DNA of 64,000 bases from SAR324 cluster bacterium (GCA_015231885.1 JADGAT010000001.1:27436-91435), one strand, 5' to 3'; counted from the first letter of the stretch, positions 10,535 through 61,913 are shown. Notes: generated from the letters alone by a model not told the origin. Program-made: numbers and translations.

Positions 10535-12541
10535 ATGGAGGTCTTGAATTCTGCCCAACAAAATATTGTGTCTCATTACCATGGGCCTGCTTTAGTCATT
10601 GCAGGGGCAGGTAGTGGAAAAACTCGTGTGATTACTCATCGAGTTGCTGAGTTAATTCGTTCTGGCATTGATCCCTCCACTATCATGCTCCTGACGTTTA
10701 CCAATAAAGCCGCCAAAGAAATGGCAAATCGAGTTGCCCAGGCAACCAACCAGCAAAAAATAGAACATGCCATGATTCATGGTACTTTCCACAGCGTGGC
10801 CAACCGATTTTTAAGACGCCATGCCAAGCTATTGCTCTATGAGAATAATTTTTCAATTTTAGATAGTTCCGATTCCCGCGATTTGCTCAAGGCTGCTGTA
10901 GCAGAATCTATTGGCAAACCCAGTAAAAACTTTCCCAAAGCCGCTGTACTGCAAAATATATTTTCTCTTGCATTCAATCAGAATTGTGATGTGGCGACTC
11001 TTGAGCGAACTGAATACCTTCAACGATATTTTGATCTAGAATTACTGGTGGAACAACAATATCCTCATTTTTATCCGTTGATTCCAGAAATCCGAATGAT
11101 CCATGCTTCGTACCGCCACAAAAAACGACGTAATAATGCGTTGGATTTTGATGACTTATTAGAAAATTGGTTGGATCTCTTGTTAAAAAAGCAAAAAAGC
11201 CTTCCTTGGGTCGAGCAAATTCAGTTCATTCTGGTTGATGAATACCAAGATACCAACAAAGTACAGGCTTCCATCCTGGATCGTCTTGCTCAGGAACACA
11301 AAAATTTAATGGTAGTCGGCGATGATGCCCAATCTATTTATAGCTGGAGAGGAGCAAATTTTAAAAACATTCTTGACTTCCCCGTACGATATAATGCAGC
11401 TGTTTATCGCCTGGAACAAAACTATCGAAGCACACCTGATATCCTGGCATTGGCCAATAGTAGTATCAACCAGAATAAAGAGCAATTTCAAAAGGAACTG
11501 TATTCTCTCTTGCCTAATTTAGAAAGACCAGCCCTGTATCGTCTCTATGATTTAGAAAGTGAAGCGGAAATTGTTGTTGGACGCATTTTGGAGCTCAAAG
11601 ATCAAAACATCAGCTTAAATGAGATGAGCGTTCTCTATCGCAATCATGTGCAGTCAGCAACCCTGCAAGTCGCTTTGACACAAAGAGGCATTCCTTACAT
11701 TGTGCGATCAGGAGTTCAGTTTTTTGAACAAGCCCATATGAAAGATATTGTTTCGTTTTTAAAAATTATCTTCAACCCCTTAGATGAAATAGCCTGGATG
11801 CGTGTTTTGAAACTAATCCCTGGTGTGGGAAACACAACAGCACAGAAAATATTTCATGTCTTTCTAGAACAAAAAGCAGTACGTTTGACTTTTGATAATG
11901 TGGAACTACAAAAGAAAATTCCAAAGAAAGCAAAAGTTGCCTGGGAACAATTGCTCATCTGCTTCAAGCGGTTGTTGGAAGAAGGAACGACTCCTTCTCA
12001 AATGGTAGCCATTGTCTATCAAATGATCTATCGCGATTATCTTTTTGTCAGTTATGAAAATGCGGTGCAACGAGAAGCTGACATTGCTTACCTGGAAGAG
12101 TTTGCAGGAAAATATAAATCACTGGAACGATTACTCAATGAACTGTCGTTAGTCGGGACCACAGCCATCAAAGACTACGAAGCAGAACGATTTCAGGAAG
12201 ATGAGTGTTTGACTTTAACCACCATCCATCAAGCCAAAGGATTGGAATGGAACGTCGTGTTTGTGATCGGCTTGACAGAAGGGCAGTTTCCACATCAACG
12301 GTGCCTGGAACCACCAAGCCGCCTGGAAGAAGAACGGCGACTTTTTTATGTGGCAATGACTCGTGCACGCCGCTATTTAACGCTGACAGCTCCTATCGTC
12401 AGTAGTTCTTTTGGGGCAAACACCCTGTCATCCAGATCCAGATTTATCGAAGAATGTCCTCAGACCTTAATGTCATGTGTAACAACTCCTGGCACTGAAG
12501 ACATGTCGTATTCAAACTACAAGGCCCGTTTCACTTTCTGA
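10535..12541 (+). CDS. uvrD: ATP-dependent DNA helicase, UvrD/PcrA/Rep family
   Basis: Walker A GAGSGKTRVITHRVA, helicase motifs (DEYQDTN, VGDDAQSIYSWRGA) and a C-terminal UvrD_C region with QAKGLEWN. Confidence 0.85.
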   Translation: MEVLNSAQQNIVSHYHGPALVIAGAGSGKTRVITHRVAELIRSGIDPSTIMLLTFTNKAAKEMANRVAQATNQQKIEHAMIHGTFHSVANRFLRRHAKLLLYENNFSILDSSDSRDLLKAAVAESIGKPSKNFPKAAVLQNIFSLAFNQNCDVATLERTEYLQRYFDLELLVEQQYPHFYPLIPEIRMIHASYRHKKRRNNALDFDDLLENWLDLLLKKQKSLPWVEQIQFILVDEYQDTNKVQASILDRLAQEHKNLMVVGDDAQSIYSWRGANFKNILDFPVRYNAAVYRLEQNYRSTPDILALANSSINQNKEQFQKELYSLLPNLERPALYRLYDLESEAEIVVGRILELKDQNISLNEMSVLYRNHVQSATLQVALTQRGIPYIVRSGVQFFEQAHMKDIVSFLKIIFNPLDEIAWMRVLKLIPGVGNTTAQKIFHVFLEQKAVRLTFDNVELQKKIPKKAKVAWEQLLICFKRLLEEGTTPSQMVAIVYQMIYRDYLFVSYENAVQREADIAYLEEFAGKYKSLERLLNELSLVGTTAIKDYEAERFQEDECLTLTTIHQAKGLEWNVVFVIGLTEGQFPHQRCLEPPSRLEEERRLFYVAMTRARRYLTLTAPIVSSSFGANTLSSRSRFIEECPQTLMSCVTTPGTEDMSYSNYKARFTF

Positions 12542-12701
12542 TGGCCTGTTCGTAATGGACTCACCACGCTGTTCTTCATAGTAATTGCCAGTAATTCGGA
12601 TACCCTCTTTTTTACCAACGTGATAAGCAATCGGAGCTACAACGGCAATCAATAATGCAATTGCTCCAACATGTATGCTGAGTAACATCATAGAAACTCT
12701 T

Positions 12702-12859
12702 CTAAGGAAGGCGAAAATAATAACATGAGAAAGTTATGCGGGATTTTCATCGAGATTCAAGGCGTTTTATCGGGCGCATAGCTTGCACCGGTAAAGCAAC
12801 GCAGAAGATCGTTGAAAAGACAAGTAGATTTGCTAAGTTATTGTTTGAGCATTCCTAAG
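12702..12859 (+). repeat. dispersed ~158 bp MITE-like repeat, copy 1
   Basis: Sequence CTAAGGAAGGCGAAAATAATAAC...GTTATTGTTTGAGCATTCCTAAG. About 23 bp imperfect terminal inverted repeat, flanked by TAA on both sides. Confidence 0.85.
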
Positions 12860-14776: not shown

Positions 14777-14833
14777 TTATCTCTTCATAAATCCAGCATT
14801 TATTTGCAAAAAACACTTATCACCCTTTCATTG

Positions 14834-14979
14834 GAAGGCAAAAATAATACATGCTAAAGTTATGCAGGATTTTCAACGAGATTCAAGACGCTTTATTGGT
14901 TACATAAGCCGGTAAGGCAATGCAGAAGATCGTTAAAAAGGCAAATAGATTTGGTGAGTTATTGTTTGAGCATTCCTTA
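14834..14979 (+). repeat. MITE-like repeat, copy 2 (diverged; fills the yceD-rpmF intergenic region)
   Basis: Aligns with the family over GGAAGGCAAAAATAATACATG...GTTATTGTTTGAGCATTCCTTA, with multiple substitutions and indels. Confidence 0.7.
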
Positions 14980-19942: not shown

Positions 19943-22855
19943 ATGAATATGGGTGTGCTTCATATGACAGCAAAATTCATGCTACGTGCATTCTGTTTGA
20001 TGACCATCTTATGTAGCAGTGCTGGGGTCATGTCAGTTCAAGCAGCAGATGAATATATCATTCAGCAAATTTTAAAATTAGGAAACAAAAAAGCGTATGA
20101 TGCAGTTTTTAGTCCAGACAACCGATTCATAATTACCTTATCCGGAACTCACAAGCTGGAAGTTTGGAATAGCCGAACAGGTAATCCTGTGAAAGCATTT
20201 CCCACCGGAAAACATAAAGCCATGTCGTTGATTTCCCATCCACAGGATTCGGTTTTAATCACTGGGGGTAATGATCATACCATTCATGTATGGGATGTCA
20301 ACCGTGGGAGTACAACTAATGCCATGCGTGGGCATGTGGGAGCAATCACCACATTGGCCATTAATTATGACGGAACCCTGCTGGTTTCGGGAAGTGAGGA
20401 TGGTGCTATTTTGATATGGGATCTGAAACACTTTGCTTTACAAAGTACGATCCAAAAGGCGCATCTCGGCATCGTCCACAGTGTGGACATTCATCCCAAC
20501 GGAAAATTGCTGGCGAGCGGGGGAAAAGATCGCAAAATCAGGATTTGGAACCTGCAAACCGGGAAGATGATCGTTGAGTTCAAGGAGCATGCAGGAGAAG
20601 TAACAAAGGTGGCATTCCACTCGAATGGAAGAATATTAGCTTCGGCCTCTCAAGATAAAACCATCAAATTGTGGAATTGGCAAGAAAAATTTGCAGAACA
20701 TACCCTGAGCAACCATGGCAATGTGGTAACCGGATTGAGCTTTCACGCAAATGGGACGGTTCTGATTTCCAGCAGTGAGGATGAAAGGATCATTCTCTGG
20801 GATATTGAAAAAGGGAAAATGCTTTCCGAATTGAAATCGGTGGATGGCTCCGTCGAAAGTGTTCATTTTGACAGTAGCGGGAAACGAGTTATTGCAGCTA
20901 CAGCAAAAGGATTAGCAGAAGTTTGGGAGTTGGGGCCCTCTTCGTTTCTGGCCTCATTGCAGGGACACCAACGCTTCATTACAGCCCTGGATTTCACAAA
21001 AAATGGCAAGTATTTGCTCTCTGCAGCATTGGATAAAACGATCAAAGTCTGGAGTATGGACCAGCAGCAATTAGCCGTCACGTTCCCATCCGGAAACCAC
21101 CGTGTCCAGGACCTTCGTATGAGTCAGGACAGCCGAAACTTTGCAACCGCAGGTGCCGATTCGCTAGTTGGTATATGGGATACACAATCGGGACAGAGAC
21201 TGGCTTCGTTAGAAAAACATAAAGGAAAAGTCAATAGCATTGATTATCATCCAACACAACCATTTTTAGTGTCTGCTGGATCTGATCGGCAATGGTTTCT
21301 TTGGGATTTGGAGACGAGCCAGGCAACTCAATCCAGCATGACCCATCAAGATCAAATAACCGTAGTGCGGTTCGCTCCTGATGGATCACACTTTGCTACT
21401 GGCAGTGCGGATAAATCTATCATGGTATGGAGTTATCCCCAAGGGCAGCTCGTTCACACATTGACCGGTCATCGTAAAGCAATCAGTGATCTTGCTATTA
21501 GCCCCATTTCACCGATCCTGGCTTCTGCATCTGCTGATGAGACCATTACACTATGGGATATTTCTTCAGAAGGCGGGAAAAAAATACATGATTTGAAAGG
21601 GCATGGCTTTATTGTAACGGGAGTTGCTTTTTCTAAAGACGGCAAAGTTTTGATTTCTGTGTCACGTGATAAAACCGTACGCCTCTGGGATGTGGAAACC
21701 GGAAAGCCGATTAAAATTCTTAGCGGAGAACGCCATCCTATCAGCAAAATGGCCGTACGGCCGGATGGTAAACTGATTGCAGTGGGTACTCTAGGAAATG
21801 AAATCACTTTATTAGGATATCCGCTGGACATCATTGAAGTGAGCAAAAAAAAACAGGGATTGATGACAAAAGGAAACCATGCTTCAAACCAAAATCAGAA
21901 AACTGCGCAAAGGGTTGATATTTCTGATGCTGAAGCTTATATTGTGGATCAATCTGACCTGGAGGAAACTGTCGAAGAGTATGTCGAAGAGCAGATTTAT
22001 CAGGTAACGCAAAAAGAAGACTTTGCCAAGATCCAGGAAACCCGTCAACACAGCCTGAATATTGTGTTGAATAAAGGAGAAGTCTGTGAAAACGCGAACG
22101 ACTTGGAAGAAAAAGCCATTGAGGTATTGCAGATGGCTCCAGGAGACTTATCGGCATACCATGCATTTTTAAAAGTTGCTATCACACGCCAAGATATCAA
22201 TATGATATTTTTGCTGGCAAAAATCAGTTCATACGCATCCTTTGTTCCAAGTCGTTACAACTATGCACTTCCCATTGATGTAGAAAATAACTTCCGCTCC
22301 TGGATAGAAGATATTTTTGAGCAATCTCATATACGACAACAGGATAGTTTCCTGCTTTCACTCAAAAATTGCCTGGGAAAAACAATACAAATGAGGATCC
22401 CAGACATGCTGTATTATTTGGATATTCCAGAAGAATTTATACAAAAAATAATCACCATCCCACGATTTATCGACTTGCGCGATTTTAAAGGTTTAGGAAC
22501 AGAAGAATTTAAAAACCGTTTGTTTGGACAAATTTTGAAAAAACTGGGAAGTTCCACACCATATCAGGATAATCGAAGTCCCTTGGGAAATAATTTTATT
22601 TCCCCACCCGTGCCTTCAGGGCAGCTTGTTGTGAACCTGACACAAACACAACTCTGGGGCAATCCAACGCAGGTTCGCTTCCAGCTCAGAGAAAGAAGCA
22701 ATCCGTGGCAAACGTATTATACGGCAATGGATAAACAGAAAATTCTGTTTCTCCCAACAGGTCAATATTATCTTAAAATTGATAAAAGCATTCGACGTGC
22801 TTTTGTGCTAAAAGCAAATCAGAGCACCCAAATAAAAGGACCTGATTTACAATAG
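19943..22855 (+). CDS. secreted WD40-repeat protein (about 14 blades) with a C-terminal domain of unknown function
   Basis: Signal peptide ending VQA/ADEY. Fourteen WD-type blades, each with a W[DNES] dipeptide at its C-terminal end (LEVWNS, IHVWDV, IRIWNL, IKLWNW, ... VRLWDV). An acidic linker is followed by a ~300 aa C-terminal region with no recognisable motif. An AAGGAGTG RBS precedes the ATG. Confidence 0.8.
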   Translation: MNMGVLHMTAKFMLRAFCLMTILCSSAGVMSVQAADEYIIQQILKLGNKKAYDAVFSPDNRFIITLSGTHKLEVWNSRTGNPVKAFPTGKHKAMSLISHPQDSVLITGGNDHTIHVWDVNRGSTTNAMRGHVGAITTLAINYDGTLLVSGSEDGAILIWDLKHFALQSTIQKAHLGIVHSVDIHPNGKLLASGGKDRKIRIWNLQTGKMIVEFKEHAGEVTKVAFHSNGRILASASQDKTIKLWNWQEKFAEHTLSNHGNVVTGLSFHANGTVLISSSEDERIILWDIEKGKMLSELKSVDGSVESVHFDSSGKRVIAATAKGLAEVWELGPSSFLASLQGHQRFITALDFTKNGKYLLSAALDKTIKVWSMDQQQLAVTFPSGNHRVQDLRMSQDSRNFATAGADSLVGIWDTQSGQRLASLEKHKGKVNSIDYHPTQPFLVSAGSDRQWFLWDLETSQATQSSMTHQDQITVVRFAPDGSHFATGSADKSIMVWSYPQGQLVHTLTGHRKAISDLAISPISPILASASADETITLWDISSEGGKKIHDLKGHGFIVTGVAFSKDGKVLISVSRDKTVRLWDVETGKPIKILSGERHPISKMAVRPDGKLIAVGTLGNEITLLGYPLDIIEVSKKKQGLMTKGNHASNQNQKTAQRVDISDAEAYIVDQSDLEETVEEYVEEQIYQVTQKEDFAKIQETRQHSLNIVLNKGEVCENANDLEEKAIEVLQMAPGDLSAYHAFLKVAITRQDINMIFLLAKISSYASFVPSRYNYALPIDVENNFRSWIEDIFEQSHIRQQDSFLLSLKNCLGKTIQMRIPDMLYYLDIPEEFIQKIITIPRFIDLRDFKGLGTEEFKNRLFGQILKKLGSSTPYQDNRSPLGNNFISPPVPSGQLVVNLTQTQLWGNPTQVRFQLRERSNPWQTYYTAMDKQKILFLPTGQYYLKIDKSIRRAFVLKANQSTQIKGPDLQ

Positions 22856-22886
22856 CAGCAAAGCATACCAACAGAATCGTGTTAAT

Positions 22887-23049
22887 CTAAGGAAGGCGAA
22901 AATAATAACATGTGAAAGTTACGCAAGATTTTCATCGAGGTTCAAGGCGTTTTATCGGGCGCATAGCTTGCTATGTCACTGGTAAAGCAACGCAGAAGAT
23001 CGTTGAAAAGACAAGTAGATTTGCTAAGTTATGTTTGAGCATTCCTAAG
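22887..23049 (+). repeat. MITE-like repeat, copy 3
   Basis: Near-identical to copy 1 with an 8 bp internal variant. Followed by a second copy of the TAAGGAAGGCGAAAATAA left-end sequence, which supplies the metX-like RBS. Confidence 0.85.
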
Positions 23050-23064
23050 GAAGGCGAAAATAAA

Positions 23065-24138
23065 ATGATTGTTGAAAGTAAAAGATTACAACTTTCCCAA
23101 CCTTTCTACACAGAAAATGGGGATGTCATTGAAAAGCCTATAGTTGCTTATGAAGAATATGGTCAAAAAGAAGGCCACGTTGTATTGGCCCTTCATGGAG
23201 GGTTAAACAGTCATCATGTTGCAGGAAAGTATGCTGCTGAGGATCGAAAATCAGGAGAGTGGGATGGTTTGATTGGTCCTGGAAAAGCAATTGATACAAA
23301 CCTCTATCGTGTGATTGCTCCAAATGCTTTGGGCAGTATGTACGGAACGTCCTCGCCGTTAACCCTGAACCCTGATACAAAACAACCCTGGGGTGCGGAT
23401 TTCCCAAATATTACATTTATTGACATGGCTCATTTCCATAAAGTATTTCTGGAAGAAATAGGAGTGTCTAAAGTATTCATGAGTGCAGGCCCTTCGATGG
23501 GTGCACTACAATCCCTTCAATTGGCCGCACTCTATCCAGATTTGATGGACAGTGTCGTGGCAGTAGCATCTTCAGGAAGGATGACTCCTTCGGGAATGTG
23601 CATGCATCACTTTATCATGAATGCCATGCGCATGGACCCTGACTTCAATGAGGGCCGGTATGAAATTGGTACACCAAAATTGGGTTTGCGCTATGTTCAC
23701 CAGGTCATCATGATTTACTATACCCATGAAAGCATCGTCAGGGATTTATGCTGGGACGAAACTTCTCAAGAGAAAAGAAGTGAAAAAGCCCGAAATTTTA
23801 TAACTCCTCATTACATAGAAGAACACCTCCAAACATTAGATCCCAATTGTTTTATCCGGGTTCTCAATGCACTGAATTCTTATGATCTGGCAAAAGGAGC
23901 ATCAAGCTACGAGAAGGGTGTGCAGCGTATTCAATGTCCTGTTTTAATGATGAATGTTGACACCGATCAAGAATTTCCCCCCTACTGGGCCGAAGAAGTC
24001 GCTAATATTTTAAACCAGAAGAATCCAGGTCAAGCAGAGGCTATCACTATTCGTTCCAAGTGGGGGCATGCAGGGTGTCTAAAAGAAATGCAAACCATGG
24101 GGGAACATATCAAAGCCTTTATCAAACGGATTTCTTAA
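23065..24138 (+). CDS. metX: homoserine O-acetyltransferase family alpha/beta hydrolase (MetX-like)
   Basis: LALHGGLNSHH oxyanion region, nucleophile elbow GPSMGALQS, about 358 aa. The start at 23065 is preceded by AAGGAAGG. The longer ORF beginning at 22912 runs through repeat copy 3 and is rejected. Confidence 0.65.
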   Translation: MIVESKRLQLSQPFYTENGDVIEKPIVAYEEYGQKEGHVVLALHGGLNSHHVAGKYAAEDRKSGEWDGLIGPGKAIDTNLYRVIAPNALGSMYGTSSPLTLNPDTKQPWGADFPNITFIDMAHFHKVFLEEIGVSKVFMSAGPSMGALQSLQLAALYPDLMDSVVAVASSGRMTPSGMCMHHFIMNAMRMDPDFNEGRYEIGTPKLGLRYVHQVIMIYYTHESIVRDLCWDETSQEKRSEKARNFITPHYIEEHLQTLDPNCFIRVLNALNSYDLAKGASSYEKGVQRIQCPVLMMNVDTDQEFPPYWAEEVANILNQKNPGQAEAITIRSKWGHAGCLKEMQTMGEHIKAFIKRIS

Positions 24139-53526: not shown

Positions 53527-54300
53527 TCAGGATGTCACTGGTACTAATTCAAATCCAAATTGTTTAGCCTGACGTTTTAGACGTTGTAACGCGTTTGAAT
53601 CCTTTTGAGAGAAATACTCTTCTCCGAGTTCGTGATAGGATTTTCCCTCTTTGAGGATCAAGTAAATAACTTTGAGTATTTTATGAGCAATAGCGACAAT
53701 GGCTTTTTTAGAACCTCGACGGGATTTGAGTCGATAATATTTGGCTTTCCAAAAGCTGTTTTTCTTTTTGACAGCGGCCCAGGCCATTTCCACAAGCATT
53801 TCTCGAAAAAGATGTTTTTTAGCCGGGTTGCTCCCATTGCGTCTTTTGCCGGCACTTTCGTTATTGCCGGGACAAACTCCGGCCCAGTTGCTCAAGGCCT
53901 CCGGGGATCGAAAGGCCATCAGATCAGGGCCCAATTCGCCTAGAATAGATTGAGAGGCGACTTTATCAATGCCAGGAATTTCATCGAGCCGTTTCAAGGC
54001 TTCTTGATGGTCGCCCATGAGGCTTTCTACTTGCTTTTCAAGAGCGGTAATCTCATTCTCTAGTGTATTCAGGATATGGAGCAAACTCCGTAATTGAAAA
54101 CGATGGTGGTCATTAAAAAAGCCTTGGATAGAACGATATAATTCCTCAGATTTATTAACAAGGGTTCCACGACATTGTTGTTGAACGCCCTCTAAAGTGG
54201 GTTGAGAACATTCAAGTAAATAGCGCATCAAATTTCGACCGGTCACTCCAAAGAGTTCGGAGACCACAGAATCAATTTTGATATTAGCTGTTTCAAACAA
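53527..54300 (-). mobile_element. IS110-family transposase remnant (C-terminal Transposase_20 region only; N-terminal DEDD catalytic domain missing)
   Basis: 257 aa matching the C-terminal two-thirds of IS110-family transposases (LDEIPGIDKVASQSILGELG, HLFREMLVEMAWAAVKKK, AIVAIAHKIL). An in-frame stop lies immediately upstream, and no N-terminal domain is found in any frame of the adjacent 210 bp. Confidence 0.7.
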
Positions 54301-57080: not shown

Positions 57081-59336
57081 ATGAATGACAACGATAAACC
57101 AAAAGGGGGGTTAATAGAAGAACTGAACGAATTACGACAGAAGGTTGCCCTTTTAGAAAAGACTCTTTCTCAAAAGGAAATGCATGCATCTGAAGAAGTA
57201 ACGTCAAGGCTCTATAAGACAAACGAATCCGTTAATCTGCGAAAGCTGGCCGAACAACATTTACCAGCACCTCCACCCATTGATCTGCTGGAATTAACCC
57301 GGGAAGATATCGAGCACTTGTTTCATGAGCTGCAGGTCCATCAGATTGAGTTAGAGCTCCAAAACGATGAGCTTCTCAAAAACCAGCAAGAATTGGAACA
57401 ATCCCGAGATCTCCTTTACGATCTCTATGACCTTGCCCCAGTAGGATATCTGACGGTTAATAAAAGCGGCATCATCCGGAAAGCCAACCTCACCCTGGCA
57501 GCTATGCTCAATGCCGATAAACAAAGTTTGGTTGGCAAGCCGTTATCGCATTTTGTACATCCAGAAGACCAGAATCTGTATTTTTTGAAGGGCAGGGATC
57601 TGTTTAGAAGCCCCAGTTTGAAACAAACTGAGATCAGGATGCTAAACAGTGACGGTTCCTTCTTCCATGCGATGCTGACAGGAAGGAAAACAGAAAATAC
57701 GAAGGAGGCGCGACTGGTTGTTACCGACATCACCCCCCTCAAAAGAACCGAAGAGGCACTGAAGTATGCAGAAAAAGAAAACAAACGTGCTGCGGATATT
57801 GTGGCCAATATAGGCGTGGGGCTTCACATATACCAGTTGGAAGATATTGACGATGATTCTTCTTTGAGGATGATCACTGTCAATGAAGCAGCAGCCGTGA
57901 TGACAGGCATTCCTGCTGGAAAGACGATCGGTAGAACCCTGGATGAGAATTTTCCTGAACTGCGCAGGATGGAAGTGCCCCAAAAGTATGCACAGGTGGC
58001 TCGTTCCGGCATATCAATAGAACTTGGAGAAATCCATTACAGTAATGAACAGATCGGCTTTGCGACATTTTTTGTAAAAGTCTTTCCGCTTCCTGAAAAC
58101 TGCGTGGGAGTTTCGTTTGAGAATATTACCAAACGCAAACTGCTGGAGTCCCAGCTCCATCATTCGCAGAGATTGGACTCCCTGGGAACCCTGGCAGGAG
58201 GGATTGCTCATGAGTTCAATAATATTTTGTCGATTATTCGAGGCTACGGCGACATTCTGCTCCAAAAACTTCCTGAAGACAGTACAGAGAAATCCTATAT
58301 GGAGAACGTCCATACAGCCAGCAGAAGAGCCGTTGATCTGACAAAACAAATCTTAACCTTCAGTCGGATGGAACATCAAAAAAACGATGTACATTACATA
58401 CAGCCTTTGATTAAAGAAGTCCTCAAAATGATGAGAGCCACCTTACCTGTCACCATTGAGATCCAGGAAGATATCGATTCCAATTGCGCCCCCATCCTGG
58501 CAGACCCATCACAAATACATCAAGTACTTGTCAACCTCTTTACCAATGCGTTCCATGCCATGGAAGAGACTGGAGGTCTTCTGACAGTCACTTTAAAGCA
58601 AGAAACCCATAATGGGAATCAGCCGCTGCTATCCGAATTAAAAGGTGATTCGTTTCTGAAGCTGACAGTCAGCGATACAGGATATGGCATTCCAATCGAA
58701 GATCAGGAAAAAATATTTGATCCCTTTTTTACCACAAAAAAAGTAGGTGAAGGAACCGGACTTGGTTTATCCATGGTTCACAGCATTATCAAACAACATG
58801 GAGGCATCATTACGGTAGAAAGTGAGATGAAGACGGAGCAGTGCTCTGGGGGAACCTCTTTCCATATTTATCTTCCGACCGCTTCCAGAAGTTCCGAAAG
58901 CCAGCAGGAAGAAAAAAAGACACTTCCCAGAGGAAGAGGACACATCTTAGTTGTTGATGACGACACGTTGATCACCGAAGTGTACCAAGATATATTGACG
59001 GAAACTGGATATGACGTCACTGCTTTTGACAACGAGTTGGATGCATTGAAAAAATTTCAGCAAAATCCAGATCAATTTGATTTGATTTTTACAGACTTCA
59101 CCATGCCTCACTTAACCGGAGATCAGTTGAGCCAACAAATATTAAAGATCCGACCCGACATTCCCATTATTCTGACAACAGGTTACAGCAATATGATCTC
59201 TGAAAAAAAAGCAAAAGCTCTTGGAATTCAAGAATTTTTGATGAAGCCTGTTGAAAAAATTCAGCTGCTTGAAACCATTCAGAAGCTGCTTAAAAAGAAT
59301 CCAGAAAATAACCATTCAAATACGATTTTTTCTTGA
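57081..59336 (+). CDS. PAS-domain hybrid sensor histidine kinase (coiled coil, PAS, HisKA, HATPase_c, receiver)
   Basis: H-box IAHEFNNIL, N/G boxes (NLFTNAFHAM, DTGYGIP, GTGLGLS) and a C-terminal receiver (ILVVDDD...DLIFTDFTMP). Confidence 0.8.
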   Translation: MNDNDKPKGGLIEELNELRQKVALLEKTLSQKEMHASEEVTSRLYKTNESVNLRKLAEQHLPAPPPIDLLELTREDIEHLFHELQVHQIELELQNDELLKNQQELEQSRDLLYDLYDLAPVGYLTVNKSGIIRKANLTLAAMLNADKQSLVGKPLSHFVHPEDQNLYFLKGRDLFRSPSLKQTEIRMLNSDGSFFHAMLTGRKTENTKEARLVVTDITPLKRTEEALKYAEKENKRAADIVANIGVGLHIYQLEDIDDDSSLRMITVNEAAAVMTGIPAGKTIGRTLDENFPELRRMEVPQKYAQVARSGISIELGEIHYSNEQIGFATFFVKVFPLPENCVGVSFENITKRKLLESQLHHSQRLDSLGTLAGGIAHEFNNILSIIRGYGDILLQKLPEDSTEKSYMENVHTASRRAVDLTKQILTFSRMEHQKNDVHYIQPLIKEVLKMMRATLPVTIEIQEDIDSNCAPILADPSQIHQVLVNLFTNAFHAMEETGGLLTVTLKQETHNGNQPLLSELKGDSFLKLTVSDTGYGIPIEDQEKIFDPFFTTKKVGEGTGLGLSMVHSIIKQHGGIITVESEMKTEQCSGGTSFHIYLPTASRSSESQQEEKKTLPRGRGHILVVDDDTLITEVYQDILTETGYDVTAFDNELDALKKFQQNPDQFDLIFTDFTMPHLTGDQLSQQILKIRPDIPIILTTGYSNMISEKKAKALGIQEFLMKPVEKIQLLETIQKLLKKNPENNHSNTIFS

Positions 59337-59886: not shown

Positions 59887-61913
59887 CAGATGATACGGAT
59901 AAAACCATCCGAATACTGGTTATCGATGATGATGCTCTCATTCTCCATGCGACCTCACAGACTTTGAGGTCGGCGGGTTATGAAGTGATAGAGGCATTGA
60001 CAGGCAGGGAAGGGTTGCGCCTGGCCACAGAAATAATACCTGAATTGATTCTTCTTGATGTTGAGCTACCGGATTTGCATGGTTTTGACGTGTGCCGCAG
60101 CATTAAGGCCGATCCGGCACTGGCACACACTTATGTAATGATGATCTCGGGCATCAAGATAAAATCGGAGCACTTGGTAGAAGGTCTTGAAATTGGAGCA
60201 GATGATTATGTGGTACGCCCTGTCCCAAATCGTGAACTTCTGAAACGTGTACAAATTGCGTTGCGCATCAAGCAAACAGAAGAGGAGTTGAAACAACACA
60301 GGGACCAGCTGGAACAATTGGTCGAAAAGCGTACGGCGGAATTACAGGCAAGCAATGCACAGCTGCAGCAGGAAATCACGGAGCGCAAACAGATCGAAGA
60401 TAAGGTCAATAAGCTGGCATTGGCCGTTGAATATAGCCCCAGCATGGTTATGATAACAGATAGCAATGGCATTATCGAATATGTCAATCCTAGATTTGTC
60501 GAAATCACCGGCATCCCGGCTCAAACCATAACTGGGAAAAATGCCAATACCGATTTAGGACTGCCCACCTCAGCAACGGATGATCAAGCAGCACTTTGGA
60601 ATAAAGTCCGTTCAGGGCAATTATGGAAAGGAGAGTTTCATAATAAACGGCATGATGGAACCTTTTATTATGAAGAAGCGTCTATTGCCCCTCTCACAGA
60701 TGAATCCGGCCGCATTACCCACTATATCAAAATTGCCAACGATATCACGGAGCGCAGACAACTTGAGTCTCAGGTACGACAATCCCAAAAACTGGATGCC
60801 TTAGGAACACTGGCAGGAGGAATTGCCCATGAATACAACAATATTTTAGCAATAATACAGGGATATGGAGATCTGTTGCTTTCTAGACTCCCGGAAAACG
60901 GCAAAGAAAAACACTATGTTGAGAAAATACGTGAAGCAGGAAAAAGAGCGGTTGATTTGACAAAGCAAATTTTGACTTTCAGTCAGATGGATAGTCAAAA
61001 ACTCCGAGTGCAATACCTAACCCCCTTGATCAGCGAGTCACTTAAAATGATGAGGGCAACGCTACCTGTCACCATTGATATTCAACACAACCTTGATCCT
61101 GGCTGTTCTCCAATTTTAGCGGATTCCTCCCAAATACATCAGGTACTAGTAAATTTATTTACCAATGCGTCTCATGCGATGGAAACAACAGGAGGTGTCC
61201 TGAAAATCAGCTTGCAGGAAAAGAAACATCATAACACTCAGGAGGTGTTGCCCAAACTAAAAACGGATACTTTTTTAAAGCTGACAGTCCAGGATACAGG
61301 CTGTGGTATACCATCAGAAGATCAGGAAAAAATATTTGATCCCTTTTTTACAACCAGGCAAGTTGGTCAAGGCAGAGGATTTGGACTGTCAGTTGTTCAC
61401 AGTATCATTGAAAAGCACGGAGGGGCGATTACAGTAGAAAGTGTAATCAACCAGGGAACAGCTTTTCACATTTATCTTCCTATTTCTCATGAAACAGTTC
61501 ACGAAGCCCAAGAAAAAAAGAAACAAGAACGATCTCTTTACCAAGGGAAAGGTCACATTTTAGTGGTGGATGACGAAGAGGCACTAGTGGTGATTCATGA
61601 AGCACTATTGACAGACATTGGATACGAAGTCACGAGCTTTACTGACGCATTGGAAGCATTAGCAAAATTCCAAGAAAGTCCATCTCGATTTGATTTGGTA
61701 TTTACCGACTTCACCATGCCTCATTTAACCGGAGACCAATTGAGCCAGCAGCTGTTGAAGATCCATCCCGATATTCCAATTATTATGGCAACGGGTTACA
61801 GCAGTATGATTTCTAAAGAAAAAGCAAAATCCATTGGTATTCGTGAATTCATGATGAAGCCTATTGATAATGATCAGCTGGTTGCCACCATTCAGAAACT
61901 GCTAAATGCATAA
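59880..61913 (+). CDS. hybrid sensor histidine kinase (receiver, PAS, HisKA, HATPase_c, receiver); paralog of the 57081 kinase
   Basis: GTG start. N-terminal receiver (ILVIDDD), H-box IAHEYNNIL and a C-terminal receiver. The kinase core is highly similar to 57081-59336. Confidence 0.8.
   Translation: MLTDDTDKTIRILVIDDDALILHATSQTLRSAGYEVIEALTGREGLRLATEIIPELILLDVELPDLHGFDVCRSIKADPALAHTYVMMISGIKIKSEHLVEGLEIGADDYVVRPVPNRELLKRVQIALRIKQTEEELKQHRDQLEQLVEKRTAELQASNAQLQQEITERKQIEDKVNKLALAVEYSPSMVMITDSNGIIEYVNPRFVEITGIPAQTITGKNANTDLGLPTSATDDQAALWNKVRSGQLWKGEFHNKRHDGTFYYEEASIAPLTDESGRITHYIKIANDITERRQLESQVRQSQKLDALGTLAGGIAHEYNNILAIIQGYGDLLLSRLPENGKEKHYVEKIREAGKRAVDLTKQILTFSQMDSQKLRVQYLTPLISESLKMMRATLPVTIDIQHNLDPGCSPILADSSQIHQVLVNLFTNASHAMETTGGVLKISLQEKKHHNTQEVLPKLKTDTFLKLTVQDTGCGIPSEDQEKIFDPFFTTRQVGQGRGFGLSVVHSIIEKHGGAITVESVINQGTAFHIYLPISHETVHEAQEKKKQERSLYQGKGHILVVDDEEALVVIHEALLTDIGYEVTSFTDALEALAKFQESPSRFDLVFTDFTMPHLTGDQLSQQLLKIHPDIPIIMATGYSSMISKEKAKSIGIREFMMKPIDNDQLVATIQKLLNA

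What the first reader, a model, noticed from the sequence alone, without database searches (positions are those of the whole stretch)
23040..23067. Repeat-end sequence supplies Shine-Dalgarno motifs for adjacent genes (metX-like and PLC-like)
The element's left-end motif TAAGGAAGG is a strong SD-like sequence. After copy 3 the flank repeats TAAGGAAGGCGAAAATAAA directly before the metX-like ATG at 23065. This gives AAGGAAGG with a 10 nt spacer. On the other strand, the end of copy 5 (CTTAG plus flanking GAG) reads CTAAGGAGTTATG, an AAGGAG SD 4 nt before the ATG at 43787. The element, or its preferred target, therefore builds translation-initiation regions, a form of MITE domestication. A weak outward promoter-like motif lies inside the element (TTGAAAAG, ~16 nt spacer, TAAGTT) about 20 bp from its right end.
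Basis: partly seen in the sequence, partly recalled or inferred. Interest (0 to 1): 0.55.

Follow-up and report, generated by a model that had tools for sequence, protein, structure and literature searches.

The report
Small transposon ends mimic ribosome-binding sites
A 155-base non-coding mobile element in a SAR324 bacterium lands on TAA triplets at stop codons and ribosome-binding sites, so its ends look like ribosome-binding sites: one cited case is the gene's own signal, the other is a leftover element tip of untested function.

Summary
The "PLC-like" gene is a DUF6765 protein. Its AAGGAG lies 2 nt from the ATG, not 4. The internal promoter motif fails even a permissive consensus scan.

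The repeat is a 150-155 nt imperfect-palindrome MITE with 6 copies in the window. Its inverted ends start GGAAGG, like E. coli IS5. It is flanked by a 3-bp TAA/TTA duplication inside C-TWA-G. "TAAGGAAGG" is therefore the duplicated target plus the element tip.

At the DUF6765 gene the SD is the duplicated TAA plus native GGAG. That TAA was also the mfd stop codon. The element supplies nothing there.

At the MetX-like gene, a second, solo 15-nt left tip abuts the ATG. A relative (85% aa identity) has an empty site with an SD-less leader of the same length (ACCAAACAAAAATAAA). So 8 nt of element tip replaced native sequence and created strong anti-SD complementarity (-8.6 vs +1.6 kcal/mol). The spacing is long at 10-13 nt.

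Function and selection are untested. No copies were found outside this species. This is a new MITE family of a known kind, and "domestication" is not shown.

The parts
22891..23045 (+). MITE copy 3, full length, 155 nt. Left inverted repeat GGAAGGCGAAAATAATAAC, right inverted repeat ...GTTATGTTTGAGCATTCC.
   Evidence: It folds as one long imperfect hairpin (-47 kcal/mol, z -3.3). It is absent from the orthologous site in the relative.
22888..22890 (+). Left copy of the 3-bp target duplication (TAA) of copy 3, preceded by C.
   Evidence: The relative's empty site has ATC-TAA at this place.
23046..23048 (+). Right copy of the target duplication (TAA) of copy 3.
23049..23063 (+). Solo left-end fragment GGAAGGCGAAAATAA. 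Bases 23049-23056 (GGAAGGCG) are element-specific. Bases 23057-23063 (AAAATAA) are shared with the native leader. Together with the TAA it forms the SD-like TAAGGAAGG.
   Evidence: Exact 15/15 match to the left end. The relative has ACCAAACAAAAATAA at the same 16-nt distance from the ATG. Duplex with an assumed canonical anti-SD is -8.6 kcal/mol, against +1.6 in the relative. It stays unpaired in the predicted fold.
23065..24138 (+). MetX-like alpha/beta hydrolase gene, 357 aa.
23003..23030 (+).
   Evidence: The sequence is present. The permissive consensus scan did not report it.
43797..43951 (+). MITE copy 5, full length. It lacks the first G of the left end.
43794..43796 (+). Left target duplication of copy 5 (TTA). 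Read on the minus strand it is the TAA of the DUF6765 SD, TAAGGAG.
43952..43954 (+). Right target duplication of copy 5 (TTA). On the minus strand it is the TAA stop codon of mfd.
   Evidence: The relative's Mfd ends at the same residue with TGA.
43788..43793 (-). Native flank GGAGTT between the duplicated TAA and the DUF6765 ATG.
42864..43787 (-).
43952..47488 (-). mfd (transcription-repair coupling factor).
12706..12855 (+). MITE copy 1, with TAA duplicated at 12703-05 and 12856-58. The TAG stop of the TerB-like gene (12855-57, minus strand) overlaps the right junction.
14833..14976 (+). MITE copy 2, the oldest (82-87% identity). Its flanks are ATT and TTA. Its right end lies 21 nt before the rpmF ATG, and rpmF has its own GGAG in native flank.
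42488..42575 (+). MITE copy 4, left ~88 nt only (right half missing), preceded by C-TAA.
47679..47829 (+). MITE copy 6, with TAA duplicated on both sides. Its right flank GGAAGAAAA is native, because it is present in the relative that lacks the element.

Best explanation
The repeat is a non-autonomous DNA transposon (a MITE) of the IS5 / PIF-Harbinger type. It is 150-155 nt long, has no coding capacity, and is an imperfect palindrome. Its roughly 19-nt terminal inverted repeats begin GGAAGG. It inserts at C-TWA-G and duplicates TWA. The SD look-alike TAAGGAAGG is therefore the duplicated TAA followed by the element tip.

The target (C)TAA(G) is part of stop codons and of the SD consensus TAAGGAG. 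The duplication restores the triplet on both sides. So the element can land exactly on gene junctions without destroying either signal.

At mfd/DUF6765 it landed on the TAA that was both the mfd stop codon and the first bases of the DUF6765 SD. Both survive, and the SD is native.

At the MetX-like gene the likely history is inferred, not shown. An earlier copy was lost by a deletion or by interrupted repair between AAAATAA in its left end and AAAATAA in the native leader. That left an 8-nt tip (GGAAGGCG) and a regenerated C-TAA-G site. The present copy 3 then inserted into that site. The leftover tip gives this once SD-less leader strong anti-SD complementarity. Whether that changes translation is unknown, and the spacing is unfavourable.
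For: Repeat family: 6 copies, 82-96% identical among full copies.

Inverted ends: 14 of 19 positions match between the two ends by direct reading. The whole element pairs end to end, with 45 consensus pairs and no compensatory changes, and z is -3.3.

Flanking triplets covary: TAA/TAA at copies 1, 3 and 6, and TTA/TTA at copy 5, each inside C...G.

The orthologous MetX-like site in the 85%-identity relative is empty (39-nt spacer). No copy was found in about 25 kb of that relative's assembly.

The terminal hexamer is identical to E. coli IS5, which there is flanked by a TTAG duplication. Three-bp duplications are typical of the IS1031 group and of Harbinger elements (PMC2516522, PMC12730594).

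The mfd stop coincides with the right duplication, and the relative's Mfd ends at the same residue. The TerB-like stop overlaps the copy 1 junction.

There are seven left ends but only five right ends.

The relative's leader ACCAAACAAAAATAAA has the same length as GGAAGGCGAAAATAAA.

There is no Rfam match.
Against: No transposase partner with matching ends was found. The only transposase-like ORF in the window is an IS110-type fragment.

The exact boundary and the duplication length (3, 4 or 5 bp) cannot be fixed, because the element's terminal bases equal the bases flanking the target. Copy 5 is one G short under every model.

Copy 2 has no matching duplication.

All six copies point the same way, which is about a 3% event by chance for random insertion. 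A simple cut-and-paste MITE model does not predict this.

The multi-step history at the MetX-like gene rests on a single outgroup. A more distant homologue (62% identity) does carry a GAGGAG SD, so the ancestral state of the leader is not secure.

Only about 70 kb of this genome could be read.
Confidence: 0.75

Rival explanations
1. True exaptation. The element-derived TAAGGAAGG is now the working, selected ribosome-binding site of the MetX-like gene. More generally, this MITE family is retained because it builds translation-initiation regions.
For: The tip replaced an SD-less leader and gives the joint third-strongest anti-SD duplex of 39 window genes scored (-8.6 kcal/mol). In the predicted fold the solo tip is single-stranded, while the identical motif at the element's left end is sequestered in the hairpin. 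Three of six copies have an end within about 21 nt of a start codon.
Against: The spacing is 10 nt from GG and 13 nt from TAAGGA, against 5-9 nt at most SD-bearing genes here. About two thirds of genes in the window have no SD core, so an SD is not needed. At DUF6765 and rpmF the SD is native flank. Closeness to starts follows from 91% coding density and short spacers. There is no conservation test, because the element is confined to one species in all searches.
Confidence: 0.15
2. No relic. The MetX-like leader of this lineage already read TAAGGAAGGCGAAAATAA. Because it resembled the element's own end, it attracted the insertion (end-like target preference).
For: Right flanks resemble the left end in register more than background does. 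Copy 5 native coding flank scores 9/16, copy 6 scores 12/16, and the relative's empty MetX site scores 9/16, against a background of 4.2 +/- 1.7. The GGAAGAAAA next to copy 6 is native in the relative.
Against: The 15/15 identity, including 8/8 over GGAAGGCG where the relative matches at only 2 of 8, sits in a block whose neighbours (ATCTAA and AAAATAAAATG) are unchanged. No background site reaches 12/16, let alone 15.
Confidence: 0.08
3. The repeat is a structured RNA element or a sequence mobilised by another route (an IS200/IS605-type palindromic element, or REP-like), not an IS5-type MITE.
For: All six copies share one orientation, a bias known for single-strand transposons (own knowledge). 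There is a strong hairpin. No IS5-type transposase was seen.
Against: Inverted ends and covarying flanking triplets are present, whereas IS200/IS605 elements have neither (own knowledge). There are no compensatory pairs. There is no Rfam hit even at E of 1 or less. The copies sit in unrelated contexts and in both orientations relative to neighbouring genes.
Confidence: 0.04

Closest known systems
IS5-family insertion sequences and their MITEs (IS5 and IS1031/IS427 groups; for example BrickBuilt in Porphyromonas and ATR in Neisseria, PMC4596501)
   Same: The terminal hexamer GGAAGG is identical to E. coli IS5. The duplication is short and centred on T-A-rich YTAR/TNA-type targets. Size, palindromic fold, multiple copies and intergenic location are typical of bacterial MITEs.
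   Different: There is no sequence similarity beyond the tip. No parent IS has been identified. The duplication is TWA within CTWAG, not the 4-bp TTAG seen at the IS5 copy examined. The family was found only in one SAR324 species.
PIF/Harbinger transposons and Tourist-like MITEs of eukaryotes
   Same: A 3-bp TAA/TTA duplication within a C-TTA-G core. The extended PIF target CWCTTAGWG is recalled from memory, and a literature search for it found nothing. The superfamily is phylogenetically linked to IS5 (PMC12730594).
   Different: The host is bacterial. The inverted repeats are unrelated. No Myb-like partner protein is involved.
Correia elements (Neisseria), ERIC, BOX and RUP: MITEs with regulatory side effects
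   Same: They are small palindromic repeats next to genes that can create promoters, RNase sites or new ORF extensions (background in PMC3049150). Here the ORF running through copy 3 led one assembly's gene call to give a 408-aa MetX-like protein.
   Different: They have different ends and targets (TA for Correia). Their described effects are mostly transcriptional or on RNA stability. An SD-like tip left as a solo remnant in front of a start codon was not found described in the open-access papers searched.

Membership tests
MITE (generic) | Short (<300-1000 bp), multicopy, no transposase ORF | tested here: met
   Six copies of 150-155 nt. The only ORF through it is a read-through artefact.
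MITE (generic) | Terminal inverted repeats and a highly base-paired fold | tested here: met
   The two ends match at 14 of 19 positions (read). There are 45 consensus pairs across 5 copies. Fold z is -3.3.
MITE (generic) | Target-site duplication that varies with the site | tested here: met
   TAA/TAA at copies 1, 3 and 6. TTA/TTA at copy 5. Not matched at the old copy 2.
MITE (generic) | Presence/absence at orthologous sites (empty site) | tested here: met
   The relative GCA_028282505.1 has a 39-nt spacer with C-TAA at the MetX-like site and no element. The mfd-sdhC spacer also lacks it.
IS5 family / PIF-Harbinger type | Ends resembling an IS5-family inverted repeat | tested here: met
   GGAAGG is identical to both ends of E. 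coli IS5, followed by a similar (G)CGAA..TAA run with indels. The similarity is limited to about 13 of 16 positions.
IS5 family / PIF-Harbinger type | 2-4 bp duplication at a TNA / YTAR-type target | tested here: met
   TWA within C-TWA-G. The length is ambiguous (3-5 bp) because the boundary bases repeat. Literature: PMC2516522, PMC12730594.
IS5 family / PIF-Harbinger type | A DDE transposase gene flanked by the same ends in the same genome | tested here: not met
   No DDE_Tnp_1-type ORF in the 64-kb window or in 5 kb beyond it. Only an IS110-type Transposase_20 fragment is present. The rest of the genome could not be read, so this is inconclusive for the genome as a whole.
IS200/IS605-derived palindromic elements | No inverted ends, no duplication, insertion 3' of a fixed tetra- or pentanucleotide | tested here: not met
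   Inverted ends and covarying duplications are present.
Functional Shine-Dalgarno site | Complementarity to the 16S 3' tail | tested here: met
   -8.6 kcal/mol for both leaders, joint third and fourth of 39 genes. The relative's MetX leader gives +1.6. The anti-SD sequence was assumed to be canonical, because no 16S gene lies in the window.
Functional Shine-Dalgarno site | Spacing to the start codon in the range used by the genome | tested here: not met
   MetX-like: 10 nt after GG, 13 after TAAGGA. DUF6765: 2 nt after GGAG. Most other SD-bearing genes in the window: 5-9 nt.
Functional Shine-Dalgarno site | Effect on translation | not testable with these tools
   Needs reporters, toeprinting or ribosome profiling.
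Known RNA family (Rfam) | Covariance-model match | tested here: not met
   No hit at gathering score for the window. No hit at E of 1 or less for 22800-23150.

The most novel reading that the evidence does not exclude
This MITE family prefers targets that resemble its own left end (TAA-GGA.G...AATAA). It therefore homes to stop-codon/SD junctions. Through tip remnants it can install a de novo ribosome-binding site on a previously SD-less gene, here the MetX-like gene. That would be a real case of a bacterial MITE fragment exapted as a translation signal.
Probability: 0.15. Interest if true: 0.5.

Novelty: new member of a known kind. Interest (0 to 1): 0.3.

Why it matters
The finding explains a conspicuous repeat in an uncultured marine or sediment lineage (SAR324). 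It shows how a TWA-duplicating element can sit exactly on stop codons and ribosome-binding sites without harm.

It has a practical side. The element makes gene callers extend ORFs: one assembly calls a 408-aa MetX-like protein where the real one is 357 aa. It can also mislead motif-based RBS or promoter predictions.

The solo tip in front of the MetX-like gene is a tidy natural experiment. The same gene has an SD-less leader in one lineage and an element-derived SD-like leader in another. If tested, it could show whether transposon debris seeds translation signals. As it stands it is an ordinary MITE with an interesting footnote.

Tried and rejected
(1) Scans of genome contigs and metagenome contigs with a 23-mer that matches all six copies returned 5 and 3 loci. 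All matched only the pattern itself, at chance level.

(2) blastn of the element against plasmids gave no match.

(3) Rfam at gathering score and at E of 1 or less gave nothing except one tRNA-Gln.

(4) Exact-protein look-ups for several window genes were not on record. The 290-kb source contig could not be fetched. The second assembly of the same species is 99.9-100% identical over the three stretches compared, so it shows no allele polymorphism. The extra 5.3 kb beyond the window holds no further copy.

(5) No DUF6765 orthologue exists in the 85% relative; the best hit is 70% identical. Synteny breaks at copy 5. The native state of that junction therefore rests on the duplication logic and the conserved end of Mfd.

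(6) The automatic alignment of the mfd-sdhC spacer misplaced the copy 6 site. It was re-read by eye, and only the right flank is recognisable.

(7) A long (18-bp) target duplication was considered as a general property and rejected, because only copy 3 shows it.

(8) A tandem duplication of the element end was considered. It is not separable from the relic model.

(9) GC skew gave no usable signal to explain the shared orientation.

Full report
**What is in the sequence**

The coordinates given (23040-23067) read CATTCC-TAA-GGAAGGCGAAAATAAA-ATG. The run TAAGGAAGGCGAAAATAA (23046-23063) exactly repeats 22888-22905, which is the left junction of a repeat copy lying just upstream. A 15-mer of that left end occurs seven times in the window within 3 mismatches (2.6 expected, and no shuffle reaches 7). 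Six of these are at the starts of repeat copies. The seventh, an exact match, is at 23049. The matching right-end 15-mer marks only five copies. So there is one extra, solo left end, and it abuts the ATG at 23065.

The ATG is the true start. Eight homologues of 54-85% identity all begin M-I/L-V-E/K. The 100%-identical database protein P0001 is 357 aa. NCBIfam MetX models align from residue 2, although below their cut-offs, so the protein is MetX-like only.

At the second site the minus strand reads ...CGCCTTC-TAA-GGAGTT-ATG. The gene is a DUF6765 protein (PF20551, E 3e-64, aligned from position 1). Nearly all listed full-coverage homologues are 303-324 aa, mostly 307. The spacer after AAGGAG is 2 nt, not 4.

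Its -10 matches only 3 of 6 positions, and a permissive scan did not report it. That scan found no more sites than shuffles do.

**What the repeat is**

The window holds six copies, all on the + strand:
- 12706-12855
- 14833-14976 (old, 82-87% identical to the others)
- 22891-23045
- 42488-~42575 (left half only)
- 43797-43951
- 47679-47829

The ends are inverted repeats, GGAAGGCGAAAATAATAAC against GGAATGCTCAAACAATAAC (14 of 19). The whole element is an imperfect palindrome: 45 consensus pairs across five copies with no compensatory change, and copy 3 folds at -47 kcal/mol with z -3.3.

Each well-preserved full copy is flanked by the same triplet on both sides, inside C...G. The triplet is TAA/TAA at copies 1, 3 and 6, and TTA/TTA at copy 5. 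That covariation is the signature of a target-site duplication.

The organism is an uncultured SAR324 bacterium. A relative with 85% protein identity (GCA_028282505.1) has the same WD40-then-MetX-like gene order, with a 39-nt spacer and no element. No copy was found in about 25 kb of that relative's assembly.

There is no Rfam match and no plasmid match. There are only chance hits in 596 Gb of genomes and in the metagenome collection.

The terminal hexamer GGAAGG equals that of E. coli IS5. In MG1655, IS5 is flanked by a TTAG duplication. Three-bp duplications are typical of the IS1031 group and of Harbinger elements, which cluster with the IS5 family (PMC2516522, PMC12730594).

No matching transposase lies in the window. 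The only transposase-like ORF is an IS110-type fragment at 53527-54300.

Conclusion: this is a new, lineage-restricted MITE of the IS5/Harbinger type. Membership of IS5 proper remains unproven without the parent element.

**Why its ends look like a ribosome-binding site**

TAAGGAAGG is the duplicated TAA followed by the element tip GGAAGG. The likeness to UAAGGAGG is built into the insertion chemistry.

The target C-TWA-G contains TAA on one strand and TAG on the other, and it is part of TAAGGAG. Stop codons and SD sites are therefore natural landing sites. The duplication restores the triplet on both sides.

Three junctions show this:
- The mfd stop codon TAA is the right-hand duplication of copy 5. 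The relative's Mfd ends at the same residue...F-I-(P/I)-N-stop.
- The TAG stop of the TerB-like gene overlaps the right junction of copy 1.
- The DUF6765 SD is the left-hand duplication of copy 5 plus native GGAG.

Deleting copy 5 and one TTA reconstructs AAC-TAA-GGAGTT-ATG. This is a tight operon-type junction in which the mfd stop and the DUF6765 SD overlap. The SD was the same before and after insertion. The element supplies nothing there.

**The MetX-like leader**

The relative's empty site reads ...ATCGTGCACATC-TAA-ACCAAACAAAAATAAA-ATGATTG. The window reads ...ATCGTGTTAATC-TAA-[element]-TAA-GGAAGGCGAAAATAAA-ATGATTG.

Both leaders are 16 nt long, and AAAATAAA is native. Only ACCAAACA has become GGAAGGCG, which is identical to the first 8 nt of the element. 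It sits in a block whose neighbours are unchanged. Chance is excluded: no background site following C-TWA reaches even 12/16 matches to the element end.

The most economical history is inference. An earlier copy inserted at C-TAA-A. It was then lost by slippage or interrupted gap repair between AAAATAA in its left end and AAAATAA in the leader. That left the 8-nt tip and a regenerated C-TAA-G. The present copy 3 inserted there. Copy 3 is 96% identical to copies 1 and 5.

The consequence is measurable. Against an assumed canonical anti-SD, the leader scores -8.6 kcal/mol, joint third of 39 genes, against +1.6 for the relative. In the predicted fold the solo tip is unpaired, while the same motif at the element's left end is buried in the hairpin.

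Several points weigh against function:
- The motif lies 10 nt (from GG) to 13 nt (from TAAGGA) upstream of the ATG. Most SD-bearing genes here use 5-9 nt.
- Only about 17 of 48 crude gene calls have any SD core.
- A more distant homologue has its own GAGGAG, so the ancestral state is uncertain.

**Positional association**

Three of six copies have an end within about 21 nt of a start codon: rpmF, the MetX-like gene and DUF6765. However, the window is 91% coding. Without the elements, the spacers hosting those three copies would be about 75, 49 and 6 nt. Any surviving insertion must therefore sit beside a gene boundary.

There is a hint that the element prefers targets resembling its own left end. 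In-register matches are 9/16 at copy 5 (native coding flank), 12/16 at copy 6, and 9/16 at the relative's empty MetX site, against a background of 4.2 +/- 1.7. That preference would bias it towards TAAGGA-type sequences. With five sites this is suggestive only.

**Verdict**

The element is a MITE. The "element" half is correct in origin for the MetX-like leader, but use, selection and promoter activity are all unshown. This is a new member of a known kind. Interest is modest, with a testable footnote in the solo tip as a possible new RBS.

Noticed in passing
window 12706-47829 (all six copies): All six MITE copies lie in the same orientation on the + strand, although their orientation relative to neighbouring genes varies. 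By chance this is about a 3% event. GC skew gives no replication-direction signal.
   Followed up: partly
window 22912-24138; L014 2719-3945, L015 18661-19887: No stop codon separates a GTG inside copy 3 from the MetX-like ATG. One public assembly (GCA_002753255.1) therefore calls a 408-aa protein with a 51-aa N-terminal extension encoded by the MITE. Homologues show that the 357-aa form is correct.
   Followed up: yes
window 42488-43951: The DUF6765 gene is bracketed by a truncated copy (4) and a full copy (5). The 85% relative has different genes downstream of mfd: an 82-aa ORF and a PIN/MazE pair. The nearest DUF6765 homologues are only 70% identical, and one of the few named ones is from Thermodesulfobacteriota. 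This may be a laterally acquired or rearranged segment with a synteny break at the MITE.
   Followed up: partly
window 42650-42840: A second small repeat lies between copy 4 and the DUF6765 stop. The palindrome AGGTCAAAATACTTTTGACCT, followed by ...AGTAC, occurs twice (about 42662 and about 42806). Its nature is unknown (seen).
   Followed up: no
window 53527-54300 (-): A 257-aa ORF carries only the Transposase_20 (IS110/IS116/IS902) domain. It is probably a truncated IS110-family transposase and is unrelated to the MITE ends. It is flanked by long non-coding spacers of 571 and 212 nt.
   Followed up: partly
window 58993-59292 and 61606-61905: A 300-nt direct repeat at 78% identity lies at the 3' ends of two neighbouring PAS/histidine-kinase/response-regulator genes. 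These are paralogous sensor kinases.
   Followed up: no
window 12512-12691 (-): A 59-aa ORF is called in the other assembly. It starts 11 nt from the left junction of copy 1 and overlaps the 3' end of the uvrD-like gene. It has no Pfam hit, and it is unclear whether it is a real gene.
   Followed up: no
window 19943-22855 (+): A 970-aa protein packed with WD40 repeats, matching many eukaryote-type beta-propeller models, lies directly upstream of the MetX-like gene. It is conserved in the relative.
   Followed up: no
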